NCBI RefSeq assembly: GCF_003334305.1
Contig: NZ_QOWS01000006.1
DNA: 64,000 bases
Direction: 5' to 3' (one strand)
DNA from: Escherichia coli
Lineage (GTDB): Bacteria; Pseudomonadota; Gammaproteobacteria; Enterobacterales; Enterobacteriaceae
Positions 28,135 through 32,844 of this stretch are shown piece after piece. Under the pieces are notes generated by a model, which saw nothing but the letters and a program-made list of their open reading frames with translations, made no database searches and had not been told where the DNA came from. Every line of letters begins with the position of its first letter. The stretch's first letter is position 1. Made by a program: the position numbers and the translations under genes.

Positions 28135-29892
28135 TTACCTTTCCTGTCGCCTTGCTCCGCGCTCAGAGAGACGTTCGCGTACTGCTGACCGTTGCTCGTT
28201 ATTCAGCCTGACAGTATGGTTACTGTCGTTTAGACGTTGTGGGCGGCTCTCCTGAACTTTTTCCCGAAAAACCTGACGTTGTTCAGGTGATGCCGATTGT
28301 ATACGCTGGCGGGCGTTATCACGTTGCTGTTGGTTCAGTGGGCGCTGCTGTACTTTTTCCTTAAACACCTGGCGCTGCTCAGGCGAGGCTGACTGAATAC
28401 GCTCACGCGCTGCGTCTCTTCGCTGCTGGATCTGTGGGTTAGTCTGCATTTTCTCGCGGACTGCCTGGCGCTGCTCAGGCGAGGCCGACTGATAACGCTG
28501 ACGAGCGGCGTCCTTTTGTTGCTGGGTCAGTGGTTGGCGACGGCTGAAGTCGCGGAAGTCGTCATAGCTCCCATAGTTTTCAGCTTCATTAAACCGCTGT
28601 GCCGCTGCCTGACGTTGGGTATCTCGTGTAATGACGGGGGCGGCGTGTGTTCGTTGCTGAAACTGACTTGCTGCCGCCTGACGCTGGCTGTCGCGTGTTG
28701 GAGCAGGTAGCTGCGTGGCGCTCATTCCGCCGTTGACATCGGTTTGATGAAACCGCTTTGCCATATCCTGATCATGATAGGGCACACCATTACGGTAGTT
28801 TGGATTGTGCCGCCATGCCATATTCTTATCAGTAAGATGCTCACCGGTGATACGGTTGAAATTGTTGACGTCGATATTGATGTTGTCGCCGTTGTGTTGC
28901 CAGCCATTACCGTCACGATGACCGCCATCGTGGTGATGATAATCATCATCGTCATGATGATGATGGTCATGATCGTCGTCATCCCAGTCGATGCTGCTGA
29001 ATAGTGCGTACGTGGTAGCAACACCCATGCTATAGCCGAATCCGCGCACAAAGCTGTCAATAAACGGTTCTCCGGCTGGTGGTGGCAGATAAACCGGCGG
29101 ATACGCAGTATTGGCCCAGTTCCCGTAAACCACGGTTGGGTTGTAGTTGGGAATATAGACCACATCAGGATTGGCGGGCTCAATGGAAATGACGGTTGTT
29201 GCAGGCTCTGTAATGACGGGGCTGGCAGTTAAAACGGTATTGGATGGTATGACGGGTGCCGTGACTGTCTGTTTTACCGGTACAGCTTTCTTCGTTGTGG
29301 TAATAACTTTTTGTTCGGTTGATGACTTCAGCGAACCGGTTTGTTGCGCCAGTTGCCGCAATCGCTGTACCGAGTCCATCACGTCCTGCGGCTGCGCCAG
29401 AAAAGCATCGCCCAGGTTTTGCACCCATTGCGGGTTTTCGCCCATCAATGCCATCAATTGTGGAAAGGCCACCAGTGATTTAACGCTGGCGTCCCACGGC
29501 TGGTCAGATACCGCCTGAATAGCAGCATCGCCTTGTTTAAGTGGATTATCGTGCGACCATTGCACTGCTTGAGCAACGTTTGCCGGATAGGTTGATGCCA
29601 TTAACACTTGTGAAAGCAGAGAATCGGGGTACAGCGCGACAGGCGCAACCCATTGATCGATTTGTGCAGTGCTGAATGCGGATTTGACGACGGCGGGCGT
29701 TACGGGCGGTGCGGAAACCGTTGCAGGAAGCGTAACTGCGGTGATGTCAGGCGCAGTCTGTTGTGTCGATTGCGGTTCCACAGGCGCTTCCACTGTGCGG
29801 CTTTTTATATATAGCCCGGTAGAGGCGGCACAAAGCCCGGCACTGCAAATTAGCGCCAGCACATGGGGTTTAAACGGCAAAGTCATTTTCAT
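28135..29892 (-). CDS. yacH: secreted DUF3300-family protein with His/Asp-rich tract and C-terminal tandem repeats
   Basis: 585-aa ORF with signal-peptide-like N-terminus; central DDDHDHHHHDDDDYHHHDGGHRDG tract; three ~31-aa repeats (A-R-Q/E-R-I/Y-Q-S-A-S-P-E-Q-R-Q...). Family assignment from memory. Confidence 0.85.
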   Translation of the reverse strand: MKMTLPFKPHVLALICSAGLCAASTGLYIKSRTVEAPVEPQSTQQTAPDITAVTLPATVSAPPVTPAVVKSAFSTAQIDQWVAPVALYPDSLLSQVLMASTYPANVAQAVQWSHDNPLKQGDAAIQAVSDQPWDASVKSLVAFPQLMALMGENPQWVQNLGDAFLAQPQDVMDSVQRLRQLAQQTGSLKSSTEQKVITTTKKAVPVKQTVTAPVIPSNTVLTASPVITEPATTVISIEPANPDVVYIPNYNPTVVYGNWANTAYPPVYLPPPAGEPFIDSFVRGFGYSMGVATTYALFSSIDWDDDDHDHHHHDDDDYHHHDGGHRDGNGWQHNGDNINIDVNNFNRITGEHLTDKNMAWRHNPNYRNGVPYHDQDMAKRFHQTDVNGGMSATQLPAPTRDSQRQAAASQFQQRTHAAPVITRDTQRQAAAQRFNEAENYGSYDDFRDFSRRQPLTQQQKDAARQRYQSASPEQRQAVREKMQTNPQIQQRRDAARERIQSASPEQRQVFKEKVQQRPLNQQQRDNARQRIQSASPEQRQVFREKVQESRPQRLNDSNHTVRLNNEQRSAVRERLSERGARRQER

Positions 29893-30246
29893 AATTCGGA
29901 TCTCAAGGAAATCGCAATGGTCGGCGAACTGCCACCCGCAGGTGCTGTGAATCCGAGTATAAAGAGGCGGTAGTTTAAATTTTGACTAATCTTGGGATTC
30001 GTTGAGAAAGGTGATTATCACCATGCGAATTAACGAAGTTTTTACGGAGGGAAACAATCTCTAGACCATCCTTAACGATTCAGCCACTTTTTTATGTTGC
30101 TTTTTTGTAAACAGATTAACACATCGTCAAAATCCTGCTATTCTGCCCGTTGCGGTACTGGGCATTTACCCTACAAACTGCTGTCTCACAGGAGCGTGAA
30201 GAGAATCGCCTGCCGCACTATGACAATGAGAGCGAGGAGAACCGTC

Positions 30247-32844
30247 GTGCTAGAAGAATACCGTAAGCACGTAGCTGAGCGTGCCGCTGAGGGGATTGCG
30301 CCCAAACCCCTGGATGCAAACCAAATGGCCGCACTTGTAGAGCTGCTGAAAAACCCGCCCGCGGGCGAAGAAGAATTCCTGTTAGATCTGTTAACCAACC
30401 GTGTTCCCCCAGGCGTCGATGAAGCCGCCTATGTCAAAGCAGGCTTCCTGGCTGCTATCGCGAAAGGCGAAGCCAAATCCCCTCTGCTGACTCCGGAAAA
30501 AGCCATCGAACTGCTGGGCACCATGCAGGGTGGTTACAACATTCATCCGCTGATCGACGCGCTGGATGATGCCAAACTGGCACCTATTGCTGCCAAAGCA
30601 CTTTCTCACACGCTGCTGATGTTCGATAACTTCTATGACGTAGAAGAGAAAGCGAAAGCAGGCAACGAATATGCGAAGCAGGTTATGCAGTCCTGGGCGG
30701 ATGCCGAATGGTTCCTGAATCGCCCGGCGCTGGCTGAAAAACTGACCGTTACCGTCTTCAAAGTCACTGGCGAAACTAACACCGATGACCTTTCTCCGGC
30801 ACCGGATGCGTGGTCACGCCCGGATATCCCACTGCACGCGCTGGCGATGCTGAAAAACGCCCGTGAAGGTATTGAGCCAGACCAGCCTGGTGTTGTTGGT
30901 CCGATCAAGCAAATCGAAGCTCTGCAACAGAAAGGTTTCCCGCTGGCGTACGTCGGTGACGTTGTGGGTACGGGTTCTTCGCGTAAATCCGCCACTAACT
31001 CCGTTCTGTGGTTTATGGGCGATGATATTCCACATGTGCCGAACAAACGCGGCGGTGGTTTGTGCCTCGGCGGTAAAATTGCACCCATCTTCTTTAACAC
31101 GATGGAAGACGCGGGTGCACTGCCAATCGAAGTCGACGTCTCTAACCTGAACATGGGCGACGTGATTGACGTTTACCCGTACAAAGGTGAAGTGCGTAAC
31201 CACGAAACCGGCGAACTGCTGGCGACCTTCGAACTGAAAACCGACGTGCTGATTGATGAAGTGCGTGCTGGTGGCCGTATTCCGCTGATTATCGGGCGTG
31301 GCCTGACCACCAAAGCGCGTGAAGCACTTGGTCTGCCGCACAGTGATGTGTTCCGTCAGGCGAAAGATGTCGCTGAGAGCGATCGCGGCTTCTCGCTGGC
31401 GCAAAAAATGGTAGGCCGTGCCTGTGGCGTGAAAGGCATTCGTCCGGGCGCGTACTGTGAACCGAAAATGACTTCTGTAGGTTCCCAGGACACCACCGGC
31501 CCGATGACCCGTGATGAACTGAAAGACCTGGCGTGCCTGGGCTTCTCGGCTGACCTGGTGATGCAGTCTTTCTGCCACACCGCGGCGTATCCGAAGCCAG
31601 TTGACGTGAACACGCACCACACGCTGCCGGACTTCATTATGAACCGTGGCGGTGTGTCGCTGCGTCCGGGTGACGGCGTCATTCACTCCTGGCTGAACCG
31701 TATGCTGCTGCCGGATACCGTCGGTACCGGTGGTGATTCCCATACCCGTTTCCCGATCGGTATCTCTTTCCCGGCGGGTTCTGGTCTGGTGGCATTTGCA
31801 GCCGCAACAGGCGTAATGCCGCTGGATATGCCGGAATCCGTTCTGGTGCGCTTCAAAGGCAAAATGCAGCCGGGCATCACCCTGCGCGATCTGGTACACG
31901 CGATCCCGCTGTATGCGATCAAACAAGGTCTGCTGACCGTTGAGAAGAAAGGCAAGAAAAACATCTTCTCTGGTCGCATTCTGGAAATTGAAGGTCTGCC
32001 GGATCTGAAAGTTGAGCAGGCATTTGAACTGACCGATGCGTCCGCTGAGCGTTCTGCCGCTGGTTGTACTATCAAGCTGAACAAAGAACCGATCATCGAA
32101 TACCTGAACTCTAACATCGTCCTGCTGAAGTGGATGATCGCGGAAGGTTATGGCGATCGTCGTACCCTCGAACGTCGTATTCAGGGCATGGAAAAATGGC
32201 TGGCGAATCCTGAGCTGCTGGAAGCCGATGCAGATGCGGAATACGCGGCAGTGATTGACATCGATCTGGCGGATATTAAAGAGCCAATCCTGTGTGCTCC
32301 GAACGACCCGGATGACGCGCGTCCGCTGTCTGCGGTACAGGGCGAGAAGATCGACGAAGTATTTATCGGTTCTTGCATGACTAACATCGGTCACTTCCGT
32401 GCTGCGGGTAAACTGCTGGATGCGCATAAAGGCCAGTTGCCGACCCGCCTGTGGGTGGCACCGCCAACCCGTATGGATGCCGCGCAGTTGACCGAAGAAG
32501 GCTACTATAGCGTCTTCGGTAAGAGCGGTGCGCGTATCGAGATCCCTGGCTGTTCCCTGTGTATGGGTAACCAGGCGCGTGTAGCAGACGGTGCGACGGT
32601 GGTTTCCACCTCTACCCGTAACTTCCCGAACCGTCTGGGGACTGGCGCGAATGTCTTCCTGGCTTCTGCAGAACTGGCGGCTGTTGCGGCGCTGATTGGC
32701 AAACTGCCGACGCCGGAAGAGTACCAGACCTACGTTGCGCAAGTAGATAAAACTGCCGTTGATACTTATCGTTATCTGAACTTCAACCAGCTTTCTCAGT
32801 ACACCGAAAAAGCCGATGGGGTGATTTTCCAGACTGCGGTGTAA
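30247..32844 (+). CDS. acnB: aconitate hydratase B / 2-methylisocitrate dehydratase, GTG start
   Basis: ORF-track extended by 51 codons; native N-terminus [23 protein letters not shown] begins at the GTG at 30247, giving 865 aa. Confidence 0.95.

What the first reader, a model, noticed from the sequence alone, without database searches (positions are those of the whole stretch)
28135..29892. yacH: secreted protein with a His/Asp-rich tract and three ~94-nt tandem repeats
The last third of yacH (plus-strand about 28220..28500) holds three near-identical ~94-nt units encoding ~31-aa repeats (ARQRIQSASPEQRQVFKEKVQ...), and the middle (about 28911..28990) encodes DDDHDHHHHDDDDYHHHDGGH, a plausible metal-binding tract. 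The ORF here is 585 aa; my recollection is that the K-12 protein is about 617 aa, a difference of roughly one repeat unit, which would indicate in-frame repeat copy-number variation. Function is essentially unknown.
Basis: partly seen in the sequence, partly recalled or inferred. Interest (0 to 1): 0.5.

Follow-up and report, generated by a model that had tools for sequence, protein, structure and literature searches.

The report
Length-variable repeats in E. coli yacH
The gene is yacH, a poorly understood E. coli envelope protein. Its tail holds three 32-residue repeats (K-12 has four, other strains two to five) and it has a His/Asp-rich loop that also varies in length, which is an ordinary kind of in-frame repeat polymorphism in a gene of unknown function.

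Summary
Window 28135..29892 (- strand) is yacH, 585 aa, a DUF3300 protein lying between lpdA and acnB. The repeats are real, but the period is 96 nt (32 codons, in frame), not 94. The units lie at 28408-28503, 28312-28407 and 28216-28311. They are only 50-69% identical at the DNA level and share a conserved R-x-R-(Y/I)-QSASPEQRQ core. The His/Asp tract, DDDDHDHHHHDDDDYHHHDGGH, is at 28918-28983.

K-12-derived strains carry a 617-aa allele. The difference from the window is exactly one 32-aa unit inside the repeat block. Across E. coli I found alleles with 2, 3, 4 and 5 units. In spread samples of 5,426 complete genomes, 3-unit and 4-unit alleles are about equally common. His/Asp tracts range from 9 to 30 residues. 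Both features vary among alleles with nearly identical flanks, so the changes are recurrent. The closest 4-unit allele differs from the window by a clean 96-nt indel, as expected for unequal crossover or slippage at a shared 22-nt core.

dN/dS is about 0.13, so the gene is under purifying selection and is not decaying. In relatives such as Klebsiella, yacH is followed by a DUF2950 gene, which E. coli lacks. No solved structure resembles the protein. Its function remains unknown, though published data link it to the envelope and to cationic peptides.

The parts
28135..29892 (-). yacH coding sequence, 585 aa plus stop; the 3-unit 'MVT' allele
   Evidence: ORF listed. 100% identical to RefSeq yacH of strain H15. 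Pfam DUF3300 match with E=1.1e-78.
29806..29862 (-). The only hydrophobic segment of the protein (aa 11-29, VLALICSAGLCAASTGLYI): a Sec signal peptide or an uncleaved N-terminal membrane anchor
   Evidence: Hydropathy scan. AF2 predicts helix 9-22. Homologues outside Enterobacterales carry AxA signal peptides.
28894..29670 (-). Pfam DUF3300 (PF11737) match, aa 75-333. It comprises an all-helical N module (aa 73-190), a T/P/V-rich linker, and a conserved P/Y-rich module (aa 235-303)
28918..28983 (-). His/Asp tract DDDDHDHHHHDDDDYHHHDGGH (aa 304-325), encoded by GAY/CAY triplet runs. Length-polymorphic, 9-30 residues among E. coli alleles
   Evidence: Disordered in AF2 (pLDDT < 50). The equivalent loop is about 4 residues in most of the family.
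28708..28917 (-). Conserved module 3 (aa 326-395, containing NINIDVNNFN and W-x-HNP-x-YR-x-GVPY), shared across the family
   Evidence: Family consensus. AF2 pLDDT up to 94. dN/dS <= 0.03 against the divergent clade allele.
28591..28698 (-). Degenerate 23-aa (69-nt) direct repeat, TRDSQRQAAASQFQQ / TRDTQRQAAAQRFNE, in the Q/R-rich region upstream of the main block
   Evidence: the repeat finder family D2, 74% identity. A rare allele carries a 23-aa tandem duplication here (P0025).
28408..28503 (-). Repeat unit 1, type M: RQRYQSASPEQRQAVREKMQTNPQIQQRRDAA (aa 464-495)
   Evidence: This is the unit type that is duplicated in 4- and 5-unit alleles.
28312..28407 (-). Repeat unit 2, type V: RERIQSASPEQRQVFKEKVQQRPLNQQQRDNA (aa 496-527)
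   Evidence: Absent from the B2-type 3-unit allele 'MMT' (UTI89).
28216..28311 (-). Repeat unit 3, type T (terminal): RQRIQSASPEQRQVFREKVQESRPQRLNDSNH (aa 528-559)
28464..28485 (-). 22-nt exact core GCCTCGCCTGAGCAGCGCCAGG in unit 1. An identical copy lies in unit 2 at 28368-28389. It is the likely site of misalignment for unit gain or loss
   Evidence: Longest exact match between units. The structure of the extra unit in L002 fits a crossover at this core.
28138..28215 (-). Basic C-terminal tail (aa 560-585) containing a degenerate partial unit, LNNEQRSAVRERL
   Evidence: The motif LNN-x-QR-x-AV is conserved in relatives.
28094..28125 (.). Bidirectional intrinsic terminator hairpin (A7-GCGGC...GCCGC-T7) shared by the convergent lpdA and yacH genes
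   Evidence: Read directly from the sequence. Only sub-threshold Rfam hits fall here.
29893..30246 (.). 354-nt divergent yacH-acnB control region. It holds a CpxR-box-like GTAAAAACTTCGTTAA at 30030-30045 on the yacH strand
   Evidence: CpxR regulation of yacH is published (PMC9600279). An RpoF holoenzyme binding site is reported in this spacer (PMC5493296).

Best explanation
SHOWN. The locus is yacH. It encodes a DUF3300 protein made up of:
- one N-terminal hydrophobic export or anchor segment;
- a conserved DUF3300 core;
- a disordered His/Asp loop;
- a basic, Q/R-rich C-terminal tail.
The tail contains 32-aa units, each predicted to form a helix-turn-helix hairpin made of two roughly 16-aa '(S/T)P-x-Q-R/Q-Q' half-units.

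The window carries the 3-unit allele (M-V-T). K-12 carries M-M-V-T. Other E. coli carry V-T, M-M-T or M-M-M-V-T.

INFERRED (mechanism of length change). Units are gained and lost in frame by misaligned pairing, either unequal recombination or replication slippage. This occurs between units that share a 22-nt exact core, or up to 78 nt between duplicated M units. The His/Asp tract changes length by slippage in its GAY/CAY triplet runs. Both kinds of change recur on near-identical allele backgrounds. The amino-acid sequence is under purifying selection, so the protein is functional and tolerates different lengths.

INFERRED, WITH LOWER CONFIDENCE (function). The bulk of YacH faces the periplasm. 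The cationic helical repeat array (about +3 per unit) acts as a length-tolerant spacer or interaction surface, and the acidic His-rich loop acts as a low-affinity cation- or pH-responsive element. The protein takes part in envelope physiology that affects susceptibility to polycationic peptides. In Escherichia it works without the DUF2950 partner that accompanies DUF3300 genes elsewhere.
For: Identity and anatomy.

Exact one-unit difference from K-12.

Allele series with 2-5 units and His/Asp tracts of 9-30 residues.

Frequencies: in two spread samples of the 5,426 complete genomes, 4-unit:3-unit counts were 33:25 of 60 and 17:22 of 40. One 2-unit allele was also sampled.

Mechanism: the window and its closest 4-unit relative, L002, differ by a clean 96-nt indel plus 9 substitutions. 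The extra L002 unit is the V-unit 5' 18 nt joined to the M-unit 3' 78 nt. That is the product expected from a crossover at the shared 22-nt core.

Recurrence: clusters of alleles whose 441 flanking residues differ by <= 1 residue per link contain 2-, 3-, 4- and 5-unit forms and many His/Asp lengths.

Selection: dN/dS is 0.13-0.15 overall and 0.07-0.14 in the repeat block. The gene is present at >= 80% coverage in 5,416 of 5,426 genomes.

Family context: most of the 103 long homologues inspected have signal peptides and low-complexity Q/R/A/E tails, and at least three carry their own lineage-specific repeats.

Partner gene: DUF3300 is followed directly by DUF2950 in six of the eight non-E. coli contexts examined. 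These include Klebsiella pneumoniae, where the order is acnB-DUF3300-DUF2950-hyp-lpdA (also PMC4653623). The partner is absent from the window.

Published phenotypes: CpxR-regulated, and the delta-yacH strain survives protamine better (PMC9600279). Expression is lower in a rob mutant (PMC7537768). Expression is induced by a cathelicidin in UTI89 (PMC6737244).
Against: - The direction of each event (gain or loss) and the pathway (RecA-dependent or slippage) cannot be read from sequence.
- Allele frequencies come from 100 sampled rows, not from all genomes. The non-redundant protein set over-represents rare variants.
- Export and topology were not tested with a dedicated predictor or by experiment. 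The enterobacterial N-terminus lacks a clear AxA cleavage site.
- The functional part rests on one knockout phenotype and on transcriptomics from other laboratories.
- No sequence or fold relative of known function was found.
- The His/Asp loop is absent from one close relative (P0127) and from most of the family, so it is not needed for the core function.
Confidence: 0.75

Rival explanations
1. The 585 versus 617 aa difference is an assembly or annotation artefact, caused by a collapsed or expanded repeat, rather than a real allele difference.
For: Tandem repeats are a classic source of assembly collapse. Some database proteins have odd lengths caused by different start calls (P0020, P0100).
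Against: The unit is only 96 nt, and units within the 3-unit allele are 50-69% identical, so they assemble easily. Both lengths recur in thousands of complete genomes, with consistent unit composition. Alleles have distinct unit types (MVT versus MMT), which collapse cannot produce.
Confidence: 0.02
2. After losing its DUF2950 partner, E. coli yacH is a decaying gene under relaxed selection, and the indels are neutral debris on the way to a pseudogene.
For: - Orphan status.
- Many in-frame indels, including sporadic tandem duplications of 16-45 aa.
- An IS1 insertion in one strain.
- The knockout is viable and even survives protamine better (PMC9600279).
- In Salmonella Typhimurium an 8-bp deletion in the His/Asp-coding tract makes yacH a pseudogene in several strains (PMC3391293, PMC10048834).
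Against: dN/dS is 0.13-0.15, with 0.00-0.15 in the DUF3300 modules and 0.07-0.14 in the repeats. The gene is retained in essentially all 5,426 genomes. All E. coli length variants seen are multiples of 3. The cryptic-clade allele (74% aa identity) still keeps the same architecture.
Confidence: 0.08
3. Repeat number and His/Asp length are kept polymorphic by selection, for example to tune interaction with host cationic peptides, metals or phage. On this view they are adaptive variation rather than neutral length drift.
For: 3- and 4-unit alleles are both at intermediate frequency. Changes recur on near-identical backgrounds. Each unit adds about +3 charge. There are published links to protamine, cecropin A and cathelicidin (PMC9600279, PMC6737244).
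Against: No association with host, pathotype or phenotype was tested. Intermediate frequencies and recurrence are also what neutral high-rate indels would give. There is no sign of elevated dN/dS in the repeats.
Confidence: 0.1
4. The His/Asp tract is a genuine divalent-metal (Zn/Ni/Cu) binding site that is central to YacH function.
For: The composition is 9 His and 10 Asp in 22 residues. The only PDB sequence matches are His-tags and the His-rich loop of ZnuA, and these are composition-level only, E = 0.17-9.6. About half of family members have at least one His right after the conserved Trp.
Against: It is an insertion into a loop that is about 4 residues in most of the family, and it is missing from relative P0127. 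Its length varies from 9 to 30 residues within E. coli. It is predicted disordered. It therefore fits a dispensable, low-specificity cation or pH-sensitive loop better than a defined site.
Confidence: 0.3

Closest known systems
Pfam DUF3300 (PF11737) family, which includes E. coli K-12 YacH (b0117)
   Same: Full-length match to the family model (positions 2-227 of 227, E=1e-78). Same gene and same position (lpdA-yacH-acnB) as K-12. About 97% amino-acid identity outside the one-unit indel.
   Different: One fewer repeat unit than K-12. Compared with most family members it has an expanded His/Asp loop (22 versus about 4 residues) and an Escherichia-specific array of 32-aa units.
DUF3300-DUF2950 two-gene module of Proteobacteria, described as 'universally co-localized' and signal-peptide bearing in rhizobia (PMC4653623)
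   Same: The DUF3300 half is orthologous. In Klebsiella pneumoniae the pair sits in the same acnB-lpdA gap.
   Different: E. coli has no DUF2950 gene or remnant there. The yacH-lpdA gap is 70 nt, and tblastn of the window finds nothing at E < 0.5. The E. coli protein therefore acts alone or with an unknown partner.
Coding VNTRs (minisatellite-size in-frame repeats) of E. coli/Shigella used in MLVA typing, e.g. the Gorge panel locus ms11, which also has a 96-bp unit
   Same: Head-to-tail in-frame units of about 100 nt whose copy number differs between strains. The presumed mechanism is the same: slippage or unequal recombination.
   Different: This is not the ms11 locus. Neither ms11 primer occurs in the window, even allowing 3 mismatches. 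I found no paper describing yacH as a VNTR.
Periplasmic LTXXQ-motif helical proteins CpxP / Spy / ZraP (Pfam PF07813 and related)
   Same: Resemblance only. Both have repeated '(L/S)(T/S)PEQ(R/Q/K)' helix-start motifs in basic helical hairpins, are exported, and have a link to the Cpx response (motif similarity is from my own knowledge; Cpx regulation from PMC9600279).
   Different: There is no detectable homology. No LTXXQ Pfam hit at E <= 10. No PDB sequence hit for the tail at E <= 10, although CpxP, Spy and ZraP structures are in the PDB. The domain context is different.
His-rich low-complexity loops of metal-handling proteins such as ZnuA
   Same: A disordered stretch dominated by His and Asp in an exported protein.
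   Different: The match is compositional only (E=9.6). Metal binding is untested. Here the tract is hypervariable in length.

Membership tests
DUF3300 (PF11737) | Significant full-length match to the Pfam HMM | tested here: met
   E=1.1e-78, score 264, model positions 2-227 of 227, residues 75-333. 9,577 representative relatives at E <= 1e-3.
DUF3300 (PF11737) | N-terminal export signal (the family is predicted to be secreted or periplasmic) | tested here: inconclusive
   A single hydrophobic segment at aa 11-29, followed by K/R, with no clear AxA site. Most homologues have classic signal peptides. No signal-peptide predictor or experiment was available.
DUF3300-DUF2950 operon | A DUF2950 gene immediately downstream of the DUF3300 gene | tested here: not met
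   The gene next to yacH is the convergent lpdA, 70 nt away. tblastn with Klebsiella DUF2950 finds nothing in the 64-kb window. The partner is present in L012-L016, L019 and L021.
Coding VNTR / in-frame minisatellite | Head-to-tail units whose length is a multiple of 3 | tested here: met
   Period 96 nt = 32 codons. SPEQR motifs are spaced exactly 32 aa apart.
Coding VNTR / in-frame minisatellite | Copy number differs among strains of the species, with otherwise collinear flanks | tested here: met
   2, 3, 4 and 5 units occur in E. coli alleles. There is a clean 96-nt indel relative to L002. Variation occurs within near-identical flank clusters.
Phase-variable contingency locus | Repeat changes shift the reading frame or promoter spacing and switch expression on and off | tested here: not met
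   All E. coli length variants examined are multiples of 3 and keep the ORF open. The only frameshift found is the published Salmonella 8-bp deletion (PMC3391293).
CpxP/Spy LTXXQ family | Significant sequence match to the family profile or to solved members | tested here: not met
   No Pfam hit other than DUF3300 and an insignificant DUF1104 hit (E=2.4). The tail finds no PDB chain at E <= 10.
MLVA locus ms11 (96-bp unit) | Published primer sites flank the array | tested here: not met
   Both primers are absent from the window at <= 3 mismatches. Primers taken from PMC8215070 and PMC4644529.
His-rich metal-binding segment | Demonstrated binding of divalent metal ions | not testable with these tools
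   Only composition and composition-level PDB hits are available.

The most novel reading that the evidence does not exclude
YacH is the surviving half of a widespread, uncharacterised periplasmic two-protein system (DUF3300 plus DUF2950). On this reading, Escherichia lost the partner and compensated by amplifying a cationic helical-hairpin array and an acidic His-rich loop. The recurrent in-frame length changes would then be selected to tune envelope interaction with host polycationic peptides or metal ions. That would make yacH a natural 'allelic series' locus for envelope charge or spacing rather than a neutral VNTR.
Probability: 0.1. Interest if true: 0.6.

Novelty: new member of a known kind. 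Interest (0 to 1): 0.3.

Why it matters
yacH belongs to the E. coli 'y-ome' of genes with no known function. The DUF3300 family is very large (about 9,600 clusters at 50% identity) and has no characterised member and no solved structure.

Natural alleles differ only by 2-5 repeat units or by a 9-30 residue His/Asp loop, while the protein sequence is under purifying selection. This gives a ready-made allelic series for testing what the tail and the loop do.

The loss of the DUF2950 partner in Escherichia points to an experiment in which the Klebsiella partner is added back.

In practice, the locus is a simple, PCR-sizeable polymorphism that splits E. coli roughly in half. It also explains why yacH protein lengths differ between reference strains.

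The polymorphism itself is an ordinary kind of repeat variation and does not reveal a new mechanism.

Tried and rejected
- **MLVA locus ms11.** It has the same 96-bp unit, but its primers are not in the window, so it is a different locus.
- **Homology of the tail to CpxP/Spy/ZraP LTXXQ proteins.** No Pfam or PDB sequence support. I kept it only as a motif-level resemblance.
- **Function from curated families.** NCBIfam and PADLOC gave no hits.
- **PDB sequence search with the whole protein.** Only His-tags and the ZnuA His-rich loop matched, by composition.
- **Partner protein.** DUF2950 from Klebsiella has no PDB sequence relative and left no remnant in the window.
- **Hidden RNA or other feature on either strand.** Rfam at E <= 1 gave only two sub-threshold hits on the terminator hairpin. 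The promoter and terminator consensus scan was no richer than shuffled sequence. The antisense ORFs are mechanical and have no support.
- **Plasmid collection search.** It only returned misfiled chromosomes and chromid copies in rhizobia and Cupriavidus.
- **Pseudogenisation after partner loss.** Rejected as the main reading because dN/dS is about 0.13.
Full report
**What is there.**
The ORF at window 28135..29892 on the minus strand encodes 585 aa. It lies between lpdA (26577..28064, +) and acnB. From RefSeq synteny the true acnB start is the GTG at 30247. The sequence is 100% identical to the annotated yacH of E. coli strain H15, and a match is found in all 5,426 complete E. coli genomes. 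Pfam gives a full-length DUF3300 match at residues 75-333 with E=1.1e-78. NCBIfam and PADLOC give nothing.

**Checking the observation: the repeats.**
- Tandem Repeats Finder reports a 96-nt period, 2.9 copies and 72% matches at 28252-28533.
- The repeat finder gives three 96-nt copies spaced 96 nt apart.
- In protein register the units are aa 464-495, 496-527 and 528-559, which correspond to window 28408-28503, 28312-28407 and 28216-28311.
- At a lag of exactly 32 residues, 44 of 64 positions are identical. Composition-preserving codon shuffles give 14.9 +/- 1.2, with a maximum of 20.

The repeats are therefore real and in frame. The unit is 96 nt (not about 94), and the copies are not near-identical. 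Pairwise identity is 50-69% at the DNA level. The conserved core is R-x-R-(Y/I)-QSASPEQRQ, and the second half of each unit is diverged. I call the three unit types M (AVREKMQTNPQ...), V (VFKEKVQQRPL...) and T (VFREKVQESRPQ...). A half-unit precedes the block and a degenerate partial unit (LNNEQRSAVRERL) follows it.

**Checking the observation: the His/Asp tract.**
The tract DDDDHDHHHHDDDDYHHHDGGH occupies aa 304-325, window 28918-28983. It is encoded by runs of GAY and CAY triplets.

**The copy-number claim.**
K-12-derived strains (XL10-Gold, EPI300) carry an 1854-nt, 617-aa yacH. Alignment places one 32-aa gap inside the repeat block and nowhere else. K-12 is M-M-V-T and the window is M-V-T.

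Other E. coli alleles:

| Architecture | Length | Example |
|---|---|---|
| V-T | 553 aa | strain 158274-3 |
| M-M-T | 585 aa | UTI89 and relatives; a different 3-unit composition from the window |
| M-M-M-V-T | 648 aa | P0001 |

Two 'spread' samples of the 5,426 genomes gave the following counts:

| Sample | 4-unit | 3-unit | 2-unit | Divergent |
|---|---|---|---|---|
| 60 rows | 33 | 25 | 1 | 1 |
| 40 rows | 17 | 22 | 0 | 1 |

The two main classes are thus about equally common. Some rows were assigned to a class by inference from one verified example of the same hit pattern (H32, H96).

The His/Asp tract is also length-polymorphic. Lengths of 9, 14, 17, 20-25 and 30 residues were seen. Each change is a gain or loss of whole triplets or of a 24- or 39-nt block.

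Rare alleles carry other in-frame tandem duplications of 16, 17, 19, 23 and 45 aa elsewhere in the gene. One strain has an IS1 insertion.

**How the length changes arise.**
The closest 4-unit relative of the window is L002. It has 9 substitutions across the gene and differs by a clean 96-nt indel. Its first M unit is identical to the window's M unit. Its extra unit consists of the first 18 nt of the V unit joined to the last 78 nt of the M unit. This is the product expected if misaligned copies exchange within the 22-nt exact core GCCTCGCCTGAGCAGCGCCAGG, which M and V share (window 28464-28485 and 28368-28389). The reverse event is a deletion between 78-nt identical stretches.

In K-12 the two M units are only 91% identical. 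The K-12 four-unit state therefore has a different or older history.

When alleles are grouped by near-identical flanks (<= 1 difference per link over 441 residues), single groups contain 2-, 3-, 4- and 5-unit forms and many His/Asp lengths. This indicates recurrent events.

From established knowledge of tandem-repeat instability in E. coli, both replication slippage and unequal sister-chromatid exchange can produce such products. Sequence alone cannot tell which one acted.

**Is the gene decaying?**
No. Nei-Gojobori dN/dS between the window allele and the K-12, UTI89 and FDAARGOS_1265 alleles is 0.13-0.15 overall. It is 0.00-0.15 in the DUF3300 modules and 0.07-0.14 in the repeat block. All E. 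coli length variants keep the frame.

dS varies strongly along the gene, from 0.03 to 0.76. This suggests mosaic alleles produced by recombination.

In Salmonella Typhimurium, published comparisons report an 8-bp deletion (GATCATCA) in the His/Asp-coding tract. It truncates YacH in 14028s, UK-1, SL1344 and D23580 relative to LT2 (PMC3391293, PMC10048834). The same low-complexity DNA can therefore also inactivate the gene.

**The protein.**
- There is one hydrophobic segment, aa 11-29.
- AlphaFold2 with a 104-sequence alignment gives mean pLDDT 73.9.
- It predicts a very confident all-helical N module (aa 73-190, pLDDT > 95; 94.3 when modelled alone), disordered T/P/V-rich linkers, confident P/Y-rich and 'NINIDV...HNP' modules, and a disordered His/Asp loop.
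- Each 32-aa unit is predicted as two helices of about 13 residues (helices 457-469, 472-484, 486-501, 504-515, 522-532 and 536-548).
- The repeat block carries a net charge of +10, and the His/Asp tract a net charge of -10.

**Family context.**
The DUF3300 family is very large, with 9,577 representatives at E <= 1e-3. Most members have classic signal peptides and a low-complexity Q/R/A/E-rich tail. That tail sometimes carries its own lineage-specific tandem repeats, seen in P0129, P0223 and P0127.

The Klebsiella orthologue has roughly 17-aa (S/T)P-x-QQQ-x-RR half-units in place of the Escherichia 32-aa units.

The loop after the conserved Trp303 is about 4 residues in most members. It is expanded to 25-35 His/Asp-rich residues only in enterobacterial relatives.

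In six of the eight non-E. coli contexts examined, the DUF3300 gene is followed directly by a DUF2950 gene. In Klebsiella pneumoniae the pair sits in the same acnB-lpdA gap. A rhizobial genomics paper calls the pair 'universally co-localized' and notes signal peptides on both proteins (PMC4653623). E. coli, including the divergent clade allele L006, has only a 70-nt terminator-bearing gap between yacH and lpdA, with no DUF2950 remnant. E. coli YacH is thus an orphan half of that module.

**Published functional hints.**
- yacH is CpxR-regulated. Its mRNA falls with protamine, and a delta-yacH strain survives protamine better (PMC9600279, which also cites repression by cecropin A).
- It is down-regulated in a rob mutant (PMC7537768).
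- It is induced by a cathelicidin peptide in UTI89 (PMC6737244).
- The yacH-acnB spacer binds RpoF holoenzyme in vitro (PMC5493296).
- The single CpxR-box-like match in the whole window lies 138-153 nt upstream of the yacH start. On its own this is weak, because 0.8 matches are expected by chance.

**Verdict.**
The feature is an in-frame coding minisatellite plus a triplet-repeat His/Asp loop, in a known but uncharacterised exported DUF3300 protein. Both vary recurrently in length among E. coli strains under purifying selection on the sequence.

I found no paper describing this polymorphism. It is also not the 96-bp MLVA locus ms11. The kind of variation is ordinary. The mechanistic reading of the protein's function, as a periplasm-facing envelope protein with a cationic helical spacer and an acidic His-rich loop, is an inference and remains untested.

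Noticed in passing
window 28065-28134: The convergent lpdA/yacH gap holds a small hairpin (GCCGGAACATCCGGC, 28075-28089). It also holds an A7-GCGGC...GCCGC-T7 hairpin (28094-28125) that looks like a shared bidirectional intrinsic terminator. The consensus terminator scan did not list it, and only sub-threshold Rfam hits (AgrB, BASRCI414) fall on it.
   Followed up: partly
window 30030-30045 (- strand): GTAAAAACTTCGTTAA is the only GTAAA-N4-7-GTWAA (CpxR-box-like) match in the 64-kb window. It lies 138-153 nt upstream of the yacH start codon in the yacH-acnB divergent spacer. About 0.8 matches are expected by chance, so it is only suggestive, but it fits the published CpxR regulation.
   Followed up: partly
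window 30094-30246: The mechanical ORF for acnB starts at 30094 (916 aa). RefSeq synteny puts the real start at the GTG at 30247 (865 aa), so the yacH-acnB spacer is 354 nt.
   Followed up: yes
L021 (Klebsiella pneumoniae CP125156.1) 4007-6761; also L012-L016, L019: In Klebsiella the acnB-lpdA gap holds DUF3300, DUF2950 (with a clear signal peptide) and a 94-aa secreted-looking hypothetical gene. E. coli keeps only the DUF3300 gene. Two other enterobacteria-like relatives (P0124, P0127) also lack the partner, so loss appears to be repeated.
   Followed up: partly
L011 (E. coli SW071611) 301-2931: An IS1A element is inserted 78 nt into yacH, splitting it into two annotated pseudogene fragments. 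This was the only disrupted copy among the 100 sampled rows.
   Followed up: no
window 28135-29892 compared with L010/L003 alleles: Synonymous divergence between E. coli yacH alleles is strongly mosaic. dS is 0.03-0.05 in some segments and 0.37-0.76 in linker 2, the DUF3300 C module and the repeat block. This suggests intragenic recombination between old allele lineages. Overall nucleotide divergence of up to about 8-10% is high for a gene whose neighbour lpdA encodes an identical protein in every strain examined.
   Followed up: partly
P0025, P0033, P0039, P0021, P0002 (E. coli alleles): Rare alleles carry single in-frame tandem duplications of 23, 19, 16, 17 and 45 aa at different places. 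Two of them fall inside the otherwise conserved DUF3300 N module and module 3. There are also small 4-5 aa deletions, and one of these (P0074, 581 aa) was seen on 249 contigs.
   Followed up: no
AFDB50 hits (Klebsiella, Salmonella entries of 277-307 aa): Several database YacH homologues from Salmonella and Klebsiella end near residue 280-307, about where the His/Asp tract lies. This is consistent with recurrent frameshifts in that tract, like the published Salmonella 8-bp deletion. Some of these entries are labelled as fragments, so this is unverified.
   Followed up: no
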